Below, in pieces: positions 4,585-42,843 of a stretch of DNA of 44,881 nucleotides (positions are counted from its first letter, which is position 1; each line of letters starts with the position of its first letter). Origin of the DNA: a phage. A model generated the notes under the pieces. That model had not been told where the DNA came from and ran no database searches. It worked only from the letters and a program-made list of their open reading frames with translations. The position numbers and the translations under genes were made by a program. The DNA is taken from sequence record PV730301.1. The stretch is one strand, 5' to 3'.

Positions 4585-4774
4585 TGTTAACTCTCTTAAA
4601 TCGGGCTATGCCCGACTCGTTAATGTTGCCTATTTCAAAGAAGCTGCGATATTTAGGCGAATACATTCTTACGTCGCCATTCTCGAGGGTGATCCCTCCA
4701 TATACAGCACCTACTTCGAATCCATTTTTCTCCGCGTACGGACTCACATCGGTGCATTCATACATATCTTTCAT
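4574..4774 (-). CDS. hypothetical protein
   Basis: ATGA overlap with the upstream phosphoesterase gene (translational coupling). Confidence 0.45.
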   Translation of the reverse strand: MKDMYECTDVSPYAEKNGFEVGAVYGGITLENGDVRMYSPKYRSFFEIGNINESGIARFKRVNSDK

Positions 4775-5901
4775 CCCAGCATCTCCGGTGAAATAGTTAA
4801 ACGTGCGACCTCACCATATTCGGCGCTATAAGTAATTACGTTCGCACTACGGCCAGACATCCATCCGCCGCGGGAGGCGTAGGCGTCTTTAGCCGCTAAA
4901 GTGCGGTGTTGCTCAACAATCATGTTACGGCTTTCTACAATCTTTTGGTGGTGCAGGTGGCCTACGTGGGCGTAGCTGTAAACGCTCTCGCCGAACGCTT
5001 TGCGGAACTTAGCAATCATAACCGGTTCGATAGCGTCGAAGCGTGCTTTATGCCCGTGGTGAAAGAACAGGGTCGTTTTGCCGTGTTGCACCATCTTGTA
5101 AACATCCGGCGACGTGTCGACGATCACTCGGCTGTCTTTTGAGTATAAAGTCGTGAACATTTCCGCCAACCACACAGACCCTACAGGGTCGTGATTTCCT
5201 TGCACGATAAGCAAGCGAACATTTTTGTGTTTAACCAGCGCCATATCAACAACACGGCGGACCATACGAATCATGTAGCGGACAAGTTTCTGGTAGCGAG
5301 TGTCTGCGTCCAACACATGGCGCGACTCAGGGGTGACGGCATCCAGACTATCGAAGTGCGCGAAGTCCCCAAGCAGGTTAATAACTCCTGTTCCCGCGTC
5401 CGGTGCTTTCTGAAACGCAGCATCAAACCAGCGAGAGAACAGGTCTTCCGCAATCTTCATGTCCCAGTCGTCGCCGCTCTCATCGGCCCATGCCAGCATA
5501 CCGAGATGAAAATCAGATACAGTGTAAAGATTGAGTAGTTTATCGTCACGTTTGGCTCGAACGGCTTTAACAGGCGCAACGGGCGTAATCTCTGATTTCA
5601 TGCCTTCAATTACGGCTTTCATCAACTCGACCTGACGTTCGGCATCGGTGTCGGTCTTAACCCATTGCAACTTAGTGTTGCCGAACTCGTCCACAAGCGA
5701 CGACGTGCCTTTAATCTTGTAGCCGTCTGGTACGAGGTGGCTGACGTCCCGCCCGTGACCTACTCCTTTCTTAGCCAGCTTCGCTTTACGGATACGAATA
5801 ACGCGGTCTGAGATGCCGTATTTACGGGCGATGTCGATAATCTTTGTTCCGGCGTTCAATTCTTCCTGCAACTGTTCGTCGGTTATTTTCTTCCTGGCCA
5901 T
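4771..5901 (-). CDS. N-terminal HTH domain fused to a calcineurin-like metallophosphoesterase (phosphatase or nuclease)
   Basis: Motifs DFH, GDFAHFD, GNHD, HHGH and GHLHH match the metallophosphoesterase signature; N-terminal IIDIARKYGISDRVI is HTH-like; GAGGA RBS. Confidence 0.7.
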   Translation of the reverse strand: MARKKITDEQLQEELNAGTKIIDIARKYGISDRVIRIRKAKLAKKGVGHGRDVSHLVPDGYKIKGTSSLVDEFGNTKLQWVKTDTDAERQVELMKAVIEGMKSEITPVAPVKAVRAKRDDKLLNLYTVSDFHLGMLAWADESGDDWDMKIAEDLFSRWFDAAFQKAPDAGTGVINLLGDFAHFDSLDAVTPESRHVLDADTRYQKLVRYMIRMVRRVVDMALVKHKNVRLLIVQGNHDPVGSVWLAEMFTTLYSKDSRVIVDTSPDVYKMVQHGKTTLFFHHGHKARFDAIEPVMIAKFRKAFGESVYSYAHVGHLHHQKIVESRNMIVEQHRTLAAKDAYASRGGWMSGRSANVITYSAEYGEVARLTISPEMLG

Positions 5902-5938: not shown

Positions 5939-6130
5939 TCACTTCTCTTTGACATTCGAGTTGCAAGCCCAGATTAAAATAAATACCCACGGCAGCAGAA
6001 TCCAGCCAAGAAACAGGTTGGCCATGAATATCGCTAACTTCGCTTTATGGTCGCGGAAATACGCAACCAGGAAAGGCGCAAAATAGGCTAGTAGTGCAAA
6101 CAGAATTAGGGAAACTGGTAAACTGGACAT
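5939..6130 (-). CDS. Imm-like superinfection immunity membrane protein
   Basis: YFAPFLVAYFRDHKAKLAIFMANLFLGWILLPWVFILIWA matches the superinfection-immunity (Imm) pattern; AAGGAG RBS before the ATG at 6130. Confidence 0.6.
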   Translation of the reverse strand: MSSLPVSLILFALLAYFAPFLVAYFRDHKAKLAIFMANLFLGWILLPWVFILIWACNSNVKEK

Positions 6131-6160
6131 TTTAAACTCCTTCATTGTTGGTGTAAGTGA

Positions 6161-6189
6161 ATAGTACCCTATTATATTGGGGTGCGCAA
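6161..6189 (-). promoter_or_regulatory. sigma70-like promoter for the Imm/phosphoesterase operon (TTGCGC-17-TACTAT) containing the conserved TGAATAGT..CTATTATA element
   Basis: Hexamers and 17-bp spacing read from the sequence; the 23-mer is identical to 41997..42019. Confidence 0.45.
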
Positions 6190-18907: not shown

Positions 18908-19226
18908 TTCTCAATTCCTTATATTGTTGGTGTGTGTGATTACTATAATAGCCCGCTATTAGGTCGTCAACCTGTTTAAACGAACCAACGACAAAAACAT
19001 TTGCGCCTCGTTTACGCATCCTCTCGTGTTCACGTATTTGGTGCGGGTCTGGCTTCGTGTTTTCATCCTTCTTCACCTCGACGAACCAGACGATGCCGCC
19101 GGGGAGAATTATCAGCAGGTCGGGGGCGCCCACTCTATTTTCGTACGACAATTTGCGTACGAGGCCACCGATGGCCTCGAATCGCTCTTTTGCGTATTTC
19201 TGGATGCGCCCCTCAGGCGTACTCAT
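18891..19226 (-). CDS. VRR-NUC domain nuclease
   Basis: GAPDLLII...FVEVKK pattern typical of VRR-NUC. Confidence 0.65.
   Translation of the reverse strand: MSTPEGRIQKYAKERFEAIGGLVRKLSYENRVGAPDLLIILPGGIVWFVEVKKDENTKPDPHQIREHERMRKRGANVFVVGSFKQVDDLIAGYYSNHTHQQYKELRNETRI
18942..18970 (-). promoter_or_regulatory. sigma70-like promoter (TTGACG-17-TATAGT) with the conserved element, embedded in the 3' end of the VRR-NUC gene
   Basis: Hexamers and spacing read from the sequence; same architecture as 23052..23081 and 26055..26083. Confidence 0.5.
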
Positions 19227-23051: not shown

Positions 23052-23081
23052 ACTATAATAGCTAACTATTCAGGTTGTCAA
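23052..23081 (-). promoter_or_regulatory. sigma70-like promoter (TTGACA-18-TATAGT) with the conserved element
   Basis: Intergenic; hexamers read from the sequence. Confidence 0.5.
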
Positions 23082-26054: not shown

Positions 26055-26083
26055 ACTATAATAGCAAACTATTCACATGTCAA
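26055..26083 (-). promoter_or_regulatory. sigma70-like early promoter (TTGACA-17-TATAGT) with the conserved element
   Basis: Hexamers read from the sequence; a second weaker copy (TTGATA-17-TAATTA) at about 26099..26127. Confidence 0.5.
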
Positions 26084-28680: not shown

Positions 28681-28914
28681 TTATTCCAGGTCTTCTAAAG
28701 TGGCCGTCATTCCGCGAACTTCAGCAACGGCACTATATTTCCCGCCAACATTTTTCACGACACCGGATTTAACCAGTACACGTAACGACCCTTCAATGAT
28801 GGCGGAACTATAGTACTTAAAATAACTACGGCGCAAGTCGATAACGCTGCACGACCCTTTTTTACGTGTTAACGAAACGACCGCCGTAAATACGCGTGAC
28901 TGGAACTCGGTCAT
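28681..28914 (-). CDS. hypothetical protein with C-terminal TLEDLE tail
   Basis: ATGA coupling to the upstream AlpA-like gene. Confidence 0.5.
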   Translation of the reverse strand: MTEFQSRVFTAVVSLTRKKGSCSVIDLRRSYFKYYSSAIIEGSLRVLVKSGVVKNVGGKYSAVAEVRGMTATLEDLE

Positions 28915-29081
28915 TTCACGTTCTCCTTAATCCACGCTTCCACTTTCTCCGGGTCGAACGTACCTGGCTGGCGGCGGCCCATAATGCGAATACAACAATC
29001 GGGGAACTTCCCACTCTTTAACCAGTTATTCAGTGTGCGGCGAGTAACCCCGATACGCTCAGCTACTTCATTCTGTGTCAT
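28911..29081 (-). CDS. AlpA/excisionase-family HTH regulator
   Basis: MTQNEVAERIGVTRRTLNNWLKSGKFP matches the AlpA-type HTH; start placed at ATG 29081. Confidence 0.6.
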   Translation of the reverse strand: MTQNEVAERIGVTRRTLNNWLKSGKFPDCCIRIMGRRQPGTFDPEKVEAWIKENVK

Positions 29082-29113
29082 TCTCAAACCCCCATTATCA
29101 GTTAACGAAACCA

Positions 29114-29142
29114 AGTATACATTGTGAATAATGGGAAATCAA
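29114..29142 (-). promoter_or_regulatory. sigma70-like promoter (TTGATT-17-TATACT) for the AlpA-primase operon
   Basis: Hexamers read from the sequence; spacer carries an ATTATTCACA variant of the conserved element. Confidence 0.45.
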
Positions 29143-29511: not shown

Positions 29512-29540
29512 TTGCACACCCCGACATAATAGGATACTAT
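29512..29540 (+). promoter_or_regulatory. sigma70-like promoter (TTGCAC-17-TACTAT) with the conserved element
   Basis: Hexamers read from the sequence; same architecture at 30871..30899. Confidence 0.5.
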
Positions 29541-29568
29541 TCACTTATCAAAACGAAACCGAGGAGCG

Positions 29569-29766
29569 ATGGTTATGTTTAAGAAGGGTCAATTGGCTAA
29601 AACTAAACGTGGAGGGCAATATGTATTAGTGTTGCAGGACTAGAACGAGTATGACCAGGATAATCTGGTTGACGTATGGGGTCTGGTAAGAAAGAAAACT
29701 GGGTTCGCCTTACGCGATAATTTAGAACTCATCGGCAACAATTTTAAATTCAAAGGGGTGAAGTGA
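29569..29766 (+). pseudogene. small ORF interrupted by an in-frame TAG at 29641 (amber allele, readthrough or sequencing error)
   Basis: GAGGAG RBS; 24 codons, TAG, then 40 more codons ending in TGATG coupling to the next gene. Confidence 0.35.
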
Positions 29767-30870: not shown

Positions 30871-30899
30871 TTGCACACCTGGATATAATAGCCTACTAT
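30871..30899 (+). promoter_or_regulatory. sigma70-like promoter (TTGCAC-17-TACTAT) with the conserved element
   Basis: Hexamers read from the sequence. Confidence 0.5.
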
Positions 30900-30930
30900 T
30901 CATTTACACAAACGAGAGGAGAGACAGAAG

Positions 30931-40082: not shown

Positions 40083-41159
40083 ATGCTATTAACTTTAGCG
40101 CCACAGGGTTTATTTATGAGCTTACTTACATCACTAATCAGCCACCAGATATGGCTGCAACGCACCGCATCCGGCGAAGTGAAAGACCTCGCGCCGTTCA
40201 TTCAGGAGATGCGGGACGAAATAAAACGGCAGGTGCTGCTATTCGGCGACGACGGGCGCAGCACTGCGCGACTGAATAAACTGTTACGTGACCTCGAAGA
40301 AGCGCTAACTGGACTTACAGGCGACTGGCAAACAAAGCTGACAGAAGACCTTAAGGAACTGGCGGCGTATGAGGCTGAGTGGAACGTAAAGACACTGACC
40401 GCCAACGTTAACGCGGAATTTGTTACACCTACGGCCGAGCAGGTGTGGGCCGCAGCCGAGTTTCAACCCTTATCGTTAAGCGACAAGCCCGTTGACTTCA
40501 CTAAGCTGATGTCTGGCTGGGGTGAAACGGAGGTTGCGCGCCTTGTAACGGGCGTTAAGATGGGTTTCGCACAAGGCCAGACAACACGGCAGATTGTTAA
40601 GAATGTTGTAGGCGCTGGTGGACTAGCCAACATCTCTGAGCGTAACGCAGCTACAGTAATCCGCACCGCGCTGTCCCACGTATCCAACGAAGCCCGTAAT
40701 GAGACGTACCGCCAGAACGACGACATCATTGAGAAGTACGAGTGGGTGTCGACGTTGGACAGCCGCACCAGTACAATTTGCAGAGCCAGAGACGGAATGA
40801 CGTGGGAAATCGGAAAAGGGCCGATGCCGCCAGCGCATCCGAATTGTCGGTCATGCACGGCCCCTGTGATTAGCTCGGAGTTCGACTTCCTGGATAAAGG
40901 CGCAAAACGCGCGGCTAAAGGCGCAGACGGCGGAGCCCAGGTAAGCGCGGGCACCACTTACTACGAGTTCCTGAAACAGCAACCGGCATGGTTTCAGGAC
41001 CAGGCGCTTGGTCCTGTTCGCGGTAAGATTTTCCGTAACAGCGGTATATCGCCGGAAGAGTTTCGCGTAATATCTGTAGATGGTTTCGGGAATCCGCTCA
41101 CGCTTAGGCAGATGGCGGAACTCGATAAACGTGTTGCTGATTATCTGAAAGGGGAATAA
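40083..41159 (+). CDS. head morphogenesis protein (Mu F / SPP1 gp7-like)
   Basis: Position after the portal; size. Confidence 0.55.
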   Translation: MLLTLAPQGLFMSLLTSLISHQIWLQRTASGEVKDLAPFIQEMRDEIKRQVLLFGDDGRSTARLNKLLRDLEEALTGLTGDWQTKLTEDLKELAAYEAEWNVKTLTANVNAEFVTPTAEQVWAAAEFQPLSLSDKPVDFTKLMSGWGETEVARLVTGVKMGFAQGQTTRQIVKNVVGAGGLANISERNAATVIRTALSHVSNEARNETYRQNDDIIEKYEWVSTLDSRTSTICRARDGMTWEIGKGPMPPAHPNCRSCTAPVISSEFDFLDKGAKRAAKGADGGAQVSAGTTYYEFLKQQPAWFQDQALGPVRGKIFRNSGISPEEFRVISVDGFGNPLTLRQMAELDKRVADYLKGE

Positions 41160-41620
41160 TGATGGGCTTTTTCAAAGTAACTGATGTGCCGTCGCGTCGC
41201 GTAGTTCAGTATGCTCGCGTGTCTGGCTCTGGTGAGAACGTGGTGTTTATCGAAGATGAAAGTGTACTCGGTACACCAGTAGACGACATGCCGTTTGCGG
41301 ACAAGACCGGTATTGCGTTGCCTGCGGCGGGTATGCTTTACGAGATTCCGTATCTGGCGGACGCCGGTGACGTGTACTTCTCTTTGCAACCGCAGGACGC
41401 TGAACTGGCAGACGGCAGCGCAACTATCACTGTCGAAGTTAAGGCAGGCAAAGCACCCTATGCGCTGACCTGGTACAAAGACGGTAAGGAAGTGGTAAAC
41501 GCCCCGGAAGAGGCTCTGTCTCTGACGGTTAACGCCGCGGGCGAATACTTCGTTAAAGTTACCGATGCCGATGGTGTAGAGGCCGTGAGTAAGGCGGCGA
41601 AGGTCACTAAGCCAGAATGA
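41159..41620 (+). CDS. Ig-like domain protein
   Basis: C-terminal PYALTWYKDGKEV...GEYFVKVTDADG parallels the Ig-like region of the 44741 gene. Confidence 0.55.
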   Translation: MMGFFKVTDVPSRRVVQYARVSGSGENVVFIEDESVLGTPVDDMPFADKTGIALPAAGMLYEIPYLADAGDVYFSLQPQDAELADGSATITVEVKAGKAPYALTWYKDGKEVVNAPEEALSLTVNAAGEYFVKVTDADGVEAVSKAAKVTKPE

Positions 41621-41623
41621 TAA

Positions 41624-41651
41624 AAGGCCCCTTACGGGGCCTTAGATTTTT
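41624..41651. terminator. rho-independent terminator between convergent genes
   Basis: AAGGCCCC-TTAC-GGGGCCTT hairpin followed by ATTTTT. Confidence 0.65.
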
Positions 41652-41956
41652 CCTATTAGTTTTTTAATTCTATCGCGTTCTATTCTTTTCCCTTCTTCTA
41701 CTCCATCATTGAAGTATCTTTCCGCGTCTTCCTTGTTGGACTTACGAACTGCTGCACCATCTCTATATAGCTCTTGATTGTCACGTAACACCCTAATCTT
41801 AGCTATTATTTCGTTAAAAGGTGCGTCAGCACGTACTTTAAGCATAGACCTTACCTGTTCTACGAACCAAGCAAAATCAGGCTTTTTCGCTAATTTCTCT
41901 CTTAAAACAGCGTTCTCTTGTTCCGCTTTTGTGGCGCGAGCACGATAATCAACCAT
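41642..41956 (-). CDS. hypothetical charged coiled-coil protein (lone minus-strand gene in the late region)
   Basis: ORF with its own promoter and terminator. Confidence 0.5.
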   Translation of the reverse strand: MVDYRARATKAEQENAVLREKLAKKPDFAWFVEQVRSMLKVRADAPFNEIIAKIRVLRDNQELYRDGAAVRKSNKEDAERYFNDGVEEGKRIERDRIKKLIGKI

Positions 41957-41999
41957 TTTAGTAAACCTCTATTTTTATTAAATAACACCGATGTGATGA

Positions 42000-42028
42000 A
42001 TAGTACCCTATTATATTGGTGTCTGCAA
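42000..42028 (-). promoter_or_regulatory. sigma70-like promoter (TTGCAG-17-TACTAT) with the conserved 23-mer
   Basis: Same 23-mer as at 6158..6180. Confidence 0.45.
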
Positions 42029-42094
42029 ACTATTTGTTTATGTATTCCAGTTATTCCACTCAATTGTAAATGTTGGAATAAACTATTCGAATAG

Positions 42095-42123
42095 TTGACT
42101 TTTCACTAAAAATGTGCTAAGCT
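42095..42123 (+). promoter_or_regulatory. candidate late promoter (TTGACT-17-TAAGCT with extended -10 TG) overlapped by a perfect 16-bp palindrome
   Basis: Hexamers read from the sequence; palindrome AACTATTCGAATAGTT at 42081..42096. Confidence 0.45.
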
Positions 42124-42303
42124 CCACCTGAGCTTGTGAAGTATGAACAAGCGACCGCGGCGCGGGCAGGTAACGGAGCGGGACGTAAGTCCTGAGTGTA
42201 GTTACGCTGACGCGTTCGGAAGGGCCACACTCTATTGCTTGTGTAAAAAGTAACTGGTTTACTGAGATTACGCCGTTTCTATGTTTAAATGATAAGGACT
42301 AGC

Positions 42304-42330
42304 GCCCCGCTTTATGGCGGGGCTTTACTT
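42304..42330 (+). terminator. leader terminator/attenuator directly upstream of the spanin gene
   Basis: GCCCCGC-TTTATG-GCGGGGC hairpin followed by TTTACTT, 18 nt before the RBS. Confidence 0.5.
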
Positions 42331-42347
42331 ATCGAGAAAGGAGAAAC

Positions 42348-42734
42348 ATGAATCTTAAAGCAACTGTCGTAGCGGGAGCATGTTTCATCATCCTGGCTTA
42401 CGCACACGGCATCTACCAGTATCGCAGCGGCTGGAACGAAGGCCGGGCGAATCTCGTTTCGCAGCAACAGCAGAAAGCACAGGCTGAGTTCGCGAAGAAA
42501 ACACAACGGCAGCAGCAGGATGAATCAAAGGCAGCCGCCGCTGACAACGAAGGTAAGACGAAATCAGAGGTGATTACCCGTGAAGTCGTTAAGTACATTA
42601 GAACGCCTGGTCGCAGCGTGTGCACTTTTGACCCTGAGCGCGTGCAGCTCAAGTCCCGCGCCGTCGCAAACGCCAATTCCATCCCCGGATACGACGATGA
42701 TGCAGCCGCCGTGCAAACTGGCGCCGCCAAGTAG
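42348..42734 (+). CDS. i-spanin (Rz-like)
   Basis: N-terminal TM helix, Gln/Ala-rich coiled coil, AAGGAG RBS, embedded +1 frame lipoprotein ORF. Confidence 0.7.
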   Translation: MNLKATVVAGACFIILAYAHGIYQYRSGWNEGRANLVSQQQQKAQAEFAKKTQRQQQDESKAAAADNEGKTKSEVITREVVKYIRTPGRSVCTFDPERVQLKSRAVANANSIPGYDDDAAAVQTGAAK

Positions 42735-42843
42735 CGACGCGGACGAGGATTTGGCTATCGACGTTCAGAATGCTGAATGTGTGCGGCAACTGCGCCTGAA
42801 GGTGTTCATGTTGCAGGATTACGTGAGGAATATTCTGGAATAG
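42580..42843 (+). CDS. o-spanin (Rz1-like lipoprotein)
   Basis: Signal peptide with lipobox LSAC; Pro-rich; overlaps the 3' end of the Rz gene in another frame. Confidence 0.7.
   Translation: MKSLSTLERLVAACALLTLSACSSSPAPSQTPIPSPDTTMMQPPCKLAPPSSDADEDLAIDVQNAECVRQLRLKVFMLQDYVRNILE

What the first reader, a model, noticed from the sequence alone, without database searches (positions are those of the whole stretch)
41642..42028. Lone minus-strand gene between head and spanin genes, driven by an early-type promoter
Seen in sequence: the single gene 41642..41956 (104 aa, charged, coiled-coil-like) is antisense to the surrounding late genes. It has its own promoter carrying the same 23-mer as the Imm operon promoter, and ends at the bidirectional terminator 41624..41651. 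Inference: a moron-like accessory gene (anti-defense, exclusion or regulator) expressed with early genes.
Basis: partly seen in the sequence, partly recalled or inferred. Interest (0 to 1): 0.45.

Follow-up and report, generated by a model that had tools for sequence, protein, structure and literature searches.

The report
Swappable accessory gene slot in phage
This is a real but functionally unknown small phage gene that sits, with its own promoter and terminator, in an optional plug-in slot which related phages leave empty or fill with unrelated genes, so it is an ordinary accessory ("moron") gene.

Summary
ORF 41642..41956 (-) is a genuine 104-aa gene, antisense to the late head/lysis genes of a Kagunavirus-like (Guernseyvirinae) phage. 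It ends at a two-way terminator (41624-41651). It is preceded by a 32-nt promoter motif (41997-42028) whose 23-mer is identical to the one before the Imm gene.

That motif belongs to a seven-member promoter family. The other members head the replication block and the small-gene blocks; none was found before the structural genes.

Comparison with 181 GenBank and 46 IMG/VR relatives shows a variable slot. About 40% of relatives lack it and one has it empty. The rest carry at least 12 unrelated cargos behind the same promoter, including Dam and N6 methylases, small membrane peptides and an HNH-like protein. This cargo is rare: 2 of 181 GenBank records and 0 of 46 IMG/VR loci.

The protein is basic and all-helical, and its gene is AT-rich. 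It belongs to a small uncharacterised family (PHROG 10768/16432) found in the early regions of T4-like, N4-like, Jedunavirus and lambdoid phages. No fold, domain or literature match gives a function.

Verdict: an ordinary moron-type accessory gene. Early timing and a host-directed role are inferred, not shown. The structured leader RNA next door (42151-42229) is the more interesting by-product.

The parts
41624..41651 (.). Two-way intrinsic terminator and left boundary of the slot. It ends the Hoc-like gene transcript on + and the ORF104 transcript on -.
   Evidence: 8-bp stem (6 GC pairs) at 41624-41643 called on both strands, with a T-run on +. The hairpin position is conserved in all relatives whatever the cargo.
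41642..41956 (-). ORF104, the cargo gene: a 104-aa basic, all-helical protein of PHROG 10768/16432 (function unknown).
41957..41996 (-). Cargo-specific AT-rich 5' untranslated region with the ribosome-binding site AGAGG (41970-41966).
   Evidence: Read. Six of the other cargos compared share a different short leader of the type CAGGAG/GAGGAG (three further alleles differ again), so this leader came in with the gene.
41997..42028 (-). Class-A promoter/operator motif TTGCAGACACCAATATAATAGGGTACTATTCA, right end of the variable cargo. -35-like TTGCAG at 42028-42023; alternative -10 hexamers TATAAT (42015-42010) and TACTAT (42005-42000); palindrome AATAG-N4-CTATT.
   Evidence: four copies in the genome against 0.01 expected. 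It lies about 349 nt (345-350; one variant motif at 337) before the spanin ATG in all 27 slot-bearing IMG/VR loci. The equivalent site is annotated 'phage promoter2 (PHIRE)' on the minus strand in the fBC-Eco01 record (PMC9825357).

Best explanation
ORF104 is the cargo of an optional, self-contained expression slot (promoter, gene, two-way terminator). The slot is inserted antisense between the head-decoration gene and the leader of the spanin-scaffold-capsid operon in Guernseyvirinae phages.

Shown:
- The slot has fixed ends: the terminator at 41624-41651 and the promoter motif at 41997-42028.
- Relatives lack it, have it empty, or carry one of at least 12 unrelated cargos.
- The promoter belongs to a seven-member family. 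The other members head the replication block and the small-gene blocks.
- The gene is under purifying selection and is AT-rich relative to the genome.
- Its protein family is scattered through the early-gene arrays of unrelated Enterobacterales phages.

Inferred:
- Host RNA polymerase fires this promoter together with the other family members, before or independently of late transcription. This would give a roughly 350-nt single-gene mRNA that stops at the terminator.
- The 12-kDa basic helical protein is dispensable for the core lytic cycle.
- It acts on a host or defence component by direct binding through its strongly conserved N-terminal helix-loop-helix (DYRARATKAEQENAxLRxxLAxxP...WFV). 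The variable C-terminal long helix would mediate self-association.
- On this reading it tunes host takeover or counter-defence in particular hosts.

The target and the phenotype are unknown.
For: - Identity of the window: Kagunavirus-like phage.
- Slot polymorphism, GenBank: AV104 and LM08P1 carry the same gene. BEU33 has an empty slot, with 33 nt between the Hoc-like stop codon (the terminator hairpin lies within these) and the motif. K1G and Sciku have no motif at all. Other cargos include a Dam methylase, a split N6 methylase, a 173-aa protein, proteins of 55, 67 and 81 aa, and a 37-aa membrane peptide with or without a 114-aa lipoprotein-like protein.
- Slot polymorphism, IMG/VR: 19 of 46 loci have no slot. 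The other 27 have the motif about 349 nt (337-350) from the spanin ATG. The cargos fall into at least 11 unrelated clusters, and none is ORF104.
- Promoter family: four TTGCNN-17-TACTATTCA sites and three TTGACR-17/18-TATAGT sites share the AATAG-N4-CTATT core, each against 0.01-0.03 expected. Each class-A site is followed by a ribosome-binding site and an ATG within 25-45 nt.
- Literature: seven PHIRE 'phage promoters' with consensus tgAATAGTa-ccTATTat-T are reported in a Kagunavirus.
- Composition: 39.4% GC against 50.9% for the genome, in the lowest 1.1% of windows.
- Selection: dN/dS 0.23.
- Family: 18 representatives in 1.8 billion proteins, with an invariant N-terminal motif.
- Context of homologues: small-gene arrays in RB43 (next to a C5 methylase), Jedunavirus Geezett, VLCpiS10a and the N4-like Fifi067 (next to a macro-domain protein). 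One homologue lies between cIII and int in a lambdoid prophage. One lies next to 7-deazaguanine genes.
- A 57%-identical homologue sits in a different antisense slot, between spanin and scaffold. It has its own similar promoter-like sequence and a two-way terminator.
Against: - No transcript or timing data exist for this gene.
- The only Kagunavirus RNA-seq (PMC12645636) classed the Imm gene 'late'. In this window, that gene carries the identical 23-mer. The sampling was coarse (5-120 min), and that phage's own promoter was not examined here.
- The -35/-10 match is weak, and the generic scan called no promoter here.
- No domain, fold or profile match supports any particular activity.
- The model has pTM 0.42, so the helix packing is not defined.
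- The link to DNA-modification genes is only loose neighbourhood.
- An empty slot persists in BEU33, so the promoter might have a role apart from its cargo.
Confidence: 0.65

Rival explanations
1. It is a regulator of the phage's own transcription or lysis timing. For example, it might bind the GAATAG/CTATTC half-sites in the promoter family, or the adjacent late leader and its palindrome at 42081-42096.
For: The protein is basic and helical. The gene lies back-to-back with the conserved late-leader promoter. A 16-bp palindrome there carries the same half-sites as the promoter motif.
Against: The motif family and the leader are conserved in relatives that lack this gene or the whole slot. The gene is present in only 2 of 181 GenBank relatives. 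No helix-turn-helix or other DNA-binding domain was found. A separate HTH protein is encoded at 28911-29114.
Confidence: 0.1
2. It is a superinfection-exclusion or immunity factor co-regulated with Imm, protecting the infected cell from secondary phages.
For: Its 23-mer promoter core is identical to that of the Imm operon. Several alternative cargos of the slot are small membrane or lipoprotein-like proteins typical of exclusion functions.
Against: ORF104 has no transmembrane segment or signal peptide, is 42% charged and has GRAVY -0.84. It has no match to Imm or to any PADLOC defence model. Homologues sit in cytoplasmic early-gene arrays.
Confidence: 0.08
3. It is a neutral or selfish passenger with no benefit to the phage: DNA captured by recombination in a tolerant intergenic site.
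For: The allele is rare, and slot contents turn over quickly. An HNH-like cargo in other loci shows that selfish elements use the site. A split methylase in ER23 shows that cargo can decay.
Against: dN/dS is 0.23, similar to the neighbouring spanin gene. The N-terminal motif is strongly conserved across phage families that share nothing else. The reading frame, ribosome-binding site and promoter are intact in all three phage genomes examined that carry the gene (this window, AV104 and LM08P1).
Confidence: 0.1

Closest known systems
Morons of tailed phages (Hendrix/Juhala concept; for example the lambda lom/bor and HK97 morons)
   Same: An autonomous promoter-gene-terminator unit sits between two genes of a late operon. 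It is present in some relatives and absent from others with sharp boundaries, and it has atypical base composition.
   Different: Classical morons are in temperate phages and are expressed from the prophage. This phage group is virulent. Here the promoter is not private to the gene: it is a copy of the phage's own non-late promoter family, and the site is a reusable slot with many alternative cargos.
PHROG 10768 / PHROG 16432 (unknown function); for example RB43 ORF126c, RB16 D9ICH8, Citrobacter phage Merlin gp286
   Same: The N-terminal 60 residues are homologous (E 2.6e-17 and 3.1e-15). Foldseek matches to the predicted RB16 and STML-198 proteins.
   Different: The C-terminal halves are unrelated or missing. 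Those genes lie inside long co-directional early-gene arrays, not in a lone antisense unit.
Accessory-gene hotspots carrying anti-restriction methylases in virulent phages (own knowledge)
   Same: The same slot carries Dam (D12-class) or N6 methylases in EM1, ER23, L033 and L055.
   Different: ORF104 has no methylase or other enzymatic signature. It is basic, so it is not a DNA mimic of the Ocr/ArdA kind.
Lambda Ea22 / Ead-Ea22-like proteins of the exo-xis region
   Same: Small helical proteins of unknown role. One ORF104 relative lies between cIII and int in a lambdoid prophage.
   Different: No Pfam PF13935 match. Profile comparison with lambda Ea22 gave probability 0.1%.

Membership tests
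Moron (autonomous accessory transcription unit) | Present in some close relatives and absent from others, with precise boundaries | tested here: met
   no slot in K1G, Sciku and 19 of 46 IMG/VR loci; an empty slot in BEU33; the same flanks around at least 12 different cargos.
Moron (autonomous accessory transcription unit) | Own promoter upstream of the gene | tested here: inconclusive
   A repeated promoter-family motif lies in the right orientation, 41 nt before the ATG. It is annotated as a promoter in fBC-Eco01. The generic sigma-70 scan found nothing, and activity was not measured.
Moron (autonomous accessory transcription unit) | Own terminator downstream | tested here: met
   a hairpin at 41624-41643 called on the minus strand, directly after the stop codon.
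Moron (autonomous accessory transcription unit) | Base composition unlike the surrounding genome | tested here: met
   39.4% GC against 50.9% for the genome, in the lowest 1.1% of 315-nt windows. One search shows the same dip.
Moron (autonomous accessory transcription unit) | Expressed independently of the flanking late operon | not testable with these tools
   Needs transcript mapping. Published RNA-seq of a relative is too coarse.
PHROG 10768 / 16432 | Significant match to the family profile | tested here: met
   E 2.6e-17 (residues 3-60) and E 3.1e-15 (residues 1-65). All 23 aligned relatives match both profiles.
Ead/Ea22-like (PF13935) | Match to the Pfam profile or to lambda Ea22 | tested here: not met
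   No Pfam hit at E <= 1 for any of the 23 members. hhalign against lambda Ea22 gave probability 0.1%.
Superinfection immunity protein (PF14373) | Small membrane protein matching the profile | tested here: not met
   No Pfam hit. The protein is hydrophilic, GRAVY -0.84. The neighbouring-promoter gene at 5939-6131 does match.
Known anti-phage defence or candidate defence proteins (PADLOC) | Match to any PADLOC model | tested here: not met
   0 families at E <= 1.
DNA-mimic anti-restriction proteins (Ocr/ArdA type) | Strongly acidic surface mimicking DNA | tested here: not met
   pI 9.7 and net charge +6. No PDB sequence or fold match.

The most novel reading that the evidence does not exclude
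The conserved N-terminal module of ORF104 defines a new, horizontally mobile counter-defence or host-takeover factor. It would be shared by T4-like, N4-like, Jedunavirus, lambdoid and Guernseyvirinae phages. The Guernseyvirinae slot would then be a dedicated plug-and-play site in which such factors (methylases, this protein and others) are exchanged behind a standard early promoter.
Probability: 0.25. Interest if true: 0.6.

Novelty: new member of a known kind. Interest (0 to 1): 0.33.

Why it matters
In itself this is one more hypothetical accessory gene. Its value is practical.

The slot is a natural, precisely bounded site with a standard promoter and terminator, and it tolerates inserts from 0 to about 0.8 kb. 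That makes it an obvious place to engineer cargo into Kagunaviruses, which are being considered for therapy and synthetic biology.

The catalogue of natural cargos is also a short list of candidate host-interaction or counter-defence genes. This phage group is reported to be highly sensitive to restriction-modification systems (PMC11990801).

Tried and rejected
- Pfam, NCBIfam and PADLOC scans of the protein gave nothing. A Pfam scan of all 23 relatives gave only noise.
- The word-indexed homologue search found only 5 proteins. The exhaustive search found 18 cluster representatives, all unnamed.
- PDB sequence and profile searches gave nothing below E 0.09.
- A relationship to lambda Ea22, suggested by the position of a prophage homologue, was rejected.
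- Reading the motif as a rightward promoter for the late genes was rejected. On the opposite strand, only one of the four class-A sites has a good -35 and none combines it with a usable -10. All four have TTGC-17-TACTAT plus a ribosome-binding site and ATG on the strand pointing to the small genes.
- Rfam found no family in 41500-42500.
- Literature searches for the family identifiers found nothing. The Kagunavirus RNA-seq paper did not resolve this locus. A search for Jerseyvirus transcriptomics returned only irrelevant papers.

Full report
**What the window is.** The region 41300-42400 matches 181 phage records at 90-99% identity, all Escherichia, Salmonella, Raoultella or Shigella siphoviruses. 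The records whose taxonomy was checked are Guernseyvirinae, genera Kagunavirus and Jerseyvirus. The local gene order is portal, Mu-F-like head morphogenesis protein, Hoc-like decoration protein (41159-41620, +), the minus-strand ORF, overlapping spanins (42348-42843, +), scaffold and major capsid.

**Checking the observation.**
- The ORF 41642..41956 (-) is 104 codons with an ATG start. An AGAGG ribosome-binding site lies 9 nt upstream.
- It is annotated at the same place in phage AV104 and is also present in LM08P1, at 88.5% amino-acid identity.
- Against AV104, dN/dS is 0.23, close to the neighbouring spanin gene at 0.29.
- More distant homologues exist in unrelated phages. It is therefore a real gene.
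- A hairpin at 41624-41643 is called as a terminator on both strands, and the stop codon abuts it.
- The 23-mer TGAATAGTACCCTATTATATTGG occurs exactly at 41997 and 6158, with 0.00 expected by chance. It occurs with three mismatches at 29521 on the other strand.
- The gene downstream of the 6158 copy is a bona fide superinfection-immunity protein (PF14373).
- The protein is 42% charged with pI 9.7. The model is all-helical: helices 3-23, 29-39, 47-59 and 61-103, mean pLDDT 84, pTM 0.42.

All elements of the observation are confirmed. The one caveat is that a generic sigma-70 scan did not call a promoter here.

**The promoter belongs to a family.**
- A degenerate search finds about nine related sites. 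They resolve into two exact classes.
- Class A, TTGCNN-17 nt-TACTATTCA, occurs four times against 0.01 expected: 6158-6189 (-), 29512-29543 (+), 30871-30902 (+) and 41997-42028 (-). Each is followed within 25-45 nt by a ribosome-binding site and an ATG on the same strand.
- Class B, TTGACR-17/18-TATAGT, occurs three times against 0.03 expected. All three fire leftward inside the replication block, at 18942, 23052 and 26055.
- Both classes embed the palindrome AATAG-N4-CTATT in the spacer/-10 region. I read this as a sigma-70 promoter with a shared operator; that is inference.
- The count of seven matches a published report of seven PHIRE-predicted 'phage promoters' in Kagunavirus fBC-Eco01, consensus tgAATAGTa-ccTATTat-T (PMC9825357). 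The deposited record annotates one of them on the minus strand at exactly this slot.
- The family heads the replication block, two rightward small-gene blocks, and two antisense inserts in the structural region (the Imm operon and this gene). It was not found in front of structural genes.
- This supports 'non-late promoter type' by genome logic only. The single Kagunavirus RNA-seq paper samples at 5-120 min and puts the Imm gene in its 'late' class (PMC12645636). That is weak contrary evidence.

**The gene sits in a variable slot.** Alignment with relatives shows near-identical sequence up to the terminator and again from the promoter motif rightward. The sequence between them is unrelated. 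Three states exist.
- No slot: in K1G and Sciku the terminator runs straight into the late leader and the motif is absent.
- Empty slot: BEU33 has 33 nt between the Hoc-like stop codon and the motif; the terminator hairpin lies within these 33 nt.
- Loaded slot: the cargos in GenBank records are listed below.

| Phage(s) | Cargo in the slot |
|---|---|
| K1H, M01, Golestan | 33-37-aa membrane peptide; Golestan also has a 114-aa lipoprotein-like protein |
| EM1 | 230-aa D12-class Dam methylase |
| ER23 | split N6 methylase |
| fFiEco03 | 173-aa protein, loosely annotated as a sliding clamp |
| hz69, SHAK7858, RP180 | proteins of 55, 67 and 81 aa |

Among 46 IMG/VR loci found through the spanin gene, 19 have no slot. 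The other 27 have the motif about 349 nt (337-350) from the spanin ATG. Their cargo regions run from 158 to 767 nt and fall into at least 11 unrelated clusters, including an HNH-like protein. None of them is ORF104. ORF104 is therefore a rare allele, found in 2 of 181 GenBank records.

Six of the other cargos compared share a short common leader and ribosome-binding site, and three differ again. ORF104 brings its own AT-rich 40-nt leader. At 39.4% GC against 50.9% for the genome, it lies in the lowest 1.1% of windows.

A 57%-identical homologue (P0006) lies in a second antisense slot, between spanin and scaffold, in more distant Guernseyvirinae-like contigs. It too has a similar promoter-like sequence and its own two-way terminator. 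These are the defining properties of a moron.

**What the protein is.**
- Pfam, NCBIfam and PADLOC give nothing.
- PHROG 10768 and 16432, both 'unknown function', match residues 1-65.
- An exhaustive search of 1.8 billion cluster representatives finds only 18 relatives, all unnamed.
- The alignment shows an invariant N-terminal motif, DYRARATKAEQENAxLRxxLAxxP, followed by WFV...L. The C-termini are variable, and some members have extra N-terminal extensions.
- Sequence and fold searches against solved and predicted structures return only generic coiled coils or the family itself.
- Homologues lie in arrays of small genes. These include RB43 (next to a C5 methylase), Jedunavirus Geezett (first gene after a divergent promoter region) and VLCpiS10a.
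- Others are in the N4-like Fifi067 (next to a macro-domain gene), a lambdoid prophage (between cIII and int) and a 60-kb phage (next to 7-deazaguanine genes).
- A relationship to lambda Ea22 was tested and rejected.

**Most likely mechanism.**
- Shown: an optional, autonomously bounded unit whose promoter copies the phage's non-late promoter family, and a conserved, selected, horizontally mobile small protein.
- Inferred: host RNA polymerase transcribes a roughly 350-nt single-gene mRNA leftward from near 41993 to the terminator, in parallel with the other family promoters. The protein is dispensable for the core cycle. It would act by binding a host or defence component through its conserved N-terminal helices, with the long C-terminal helix driving self-association.
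- An essential role in phage regulation is unlikely, because the motif family and the late leader are conserved in phages without the gene.
- Membrane-based exclusion is unlikely for a soluble basic protein.
- DNA mimicry is excluded by its charge.

**By-product: a structured leader RNA.**
- The sequence to the right of the slot (about 42020-42347) is more conserved than the flanking genes.
- It contains a 16-bp perfect palindrome, AACTATTCGAATAGTT (42081-42096), with the same half-sites as the promoter motif.
- It contains a promoter, TTGACT-17-TAAGCT with an extended TGn (42096-42124), and a roughly 200-nt leader. A terminator follows at 42304-42323, just before the spanin ATG.
- A covariance model of a 78-nt three-stem element (42151-42229) scores 103 bits in this window. 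It finds the element in 33 Kagunavirus-type loci (90-107 bits) and in 10 Jerseyvirus-type loci with very different stem sequences (32-35 bits).
- In the resulting alignment 93% of cells are paired, against about 30% in slid controls. Eleven of 21 pairs show compensatory changes, and 0 of 500 shuffles reach the observed score. The alignment was fitted to the model, which favours the structure.
- No Rfam family matches.
- Some records annotate a 36-38-aa ORF here. Its start codon is missing in the Jerseyvirus-type loci.
- The layout resembles a promoter-leader-terminator control point for the spanin-scaffold-capsid operon. I did not pursue it further.

**Verdict.** The moron reading is supported; early timing and function are not established. 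The finding is a new member of a known kind, of modest interest.

Noticed in passing
window 42096-42347 (+); core element 42151-42229: Conserved promoter-leader-terminator unit upstream of the spanin-scaffold-capsid genes. It contains a 78-nt three-stem RNA element supported by covariation: 93% of cells paired, 11 of 21 pairs with compensatory changes, found in Kagunavirus-type and Jerseyvirus-type loci. No Rfam family matches. It is a candidate attenuation or antitermination leader.
   Followed up: partly
window 42081-42096: Perfect 16-bp palindrome AACTATTCGAATAGTT abutting the -35 of the late-leader promoter. Its half-sites GAATAG/CTATTC are the same as in the seven-member promoter motif, which hints at one regulator acting on both.
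   Followed up: no
window 6158-6189(-), 29512-29543(+), 30871-30902(+), 41997-42028(-); 18942-18970(-), 23052-23081(-), 26055-26083(-): Two exact promoter classes share the AATAG-N4-CTATT core: TTGCNN-17-TACTATTCA (four sites) and TTGACR-17/18-TATAGT (three sites). Together they head all non-structural transcription units.
   Followed up: partly
L017 3843-4331; L018 1061-1549: In more distant Guernseyvirinae-like contigs a 57%-identical homologue sits in a second antisense slot between spanin and scaffold. It has its own promoter-like sequence and a two-way terminator. The Hoc-spanin slot there holds other small genes.
   Followed up: partly
window 4771-5901 (-): The gene downstream of Imm in the same leftward unit encodes a 376-aa protein. 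It has weak, below-cut-off matches to calcineurin-like phosphoesterase families.
   Followed up: no
L003 (Salmonella phage ER23) 1834-2562: The N6 adenine methylase cargo in the slot is split into two ORFs (101 and 137 aa). IMG/VR loci L033 and L055 carry it intact (242-246 aa). This looks like a decaying cargo.
   Followed up: no
L058, L071 (IMG/VR loci), slot cargo: One cargo cluster (141-179 aa) has an HNH-endonuclease-like C-terminus (HVDH...N...N). This suggests that selfish nucleases also use the slot.
   Followed up: no
L007 (OR594183.1, vB_EcoM_SHAK7858): The GenBank taxonomy line says Autographiviridae/Kayfunavirus. The locus is collinear with, and about 93% identical to, Kagunavirus sequence, so the record is probably mislabelled.
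   Followed up: no
window 29569-29643 (+): The first reading frame after the class-A promoter at 29512-29543 is only 24 codons, with a GAGGAG ribosome-binding site. It could be a micro-peptide or simply a leader.
   Followed up: no
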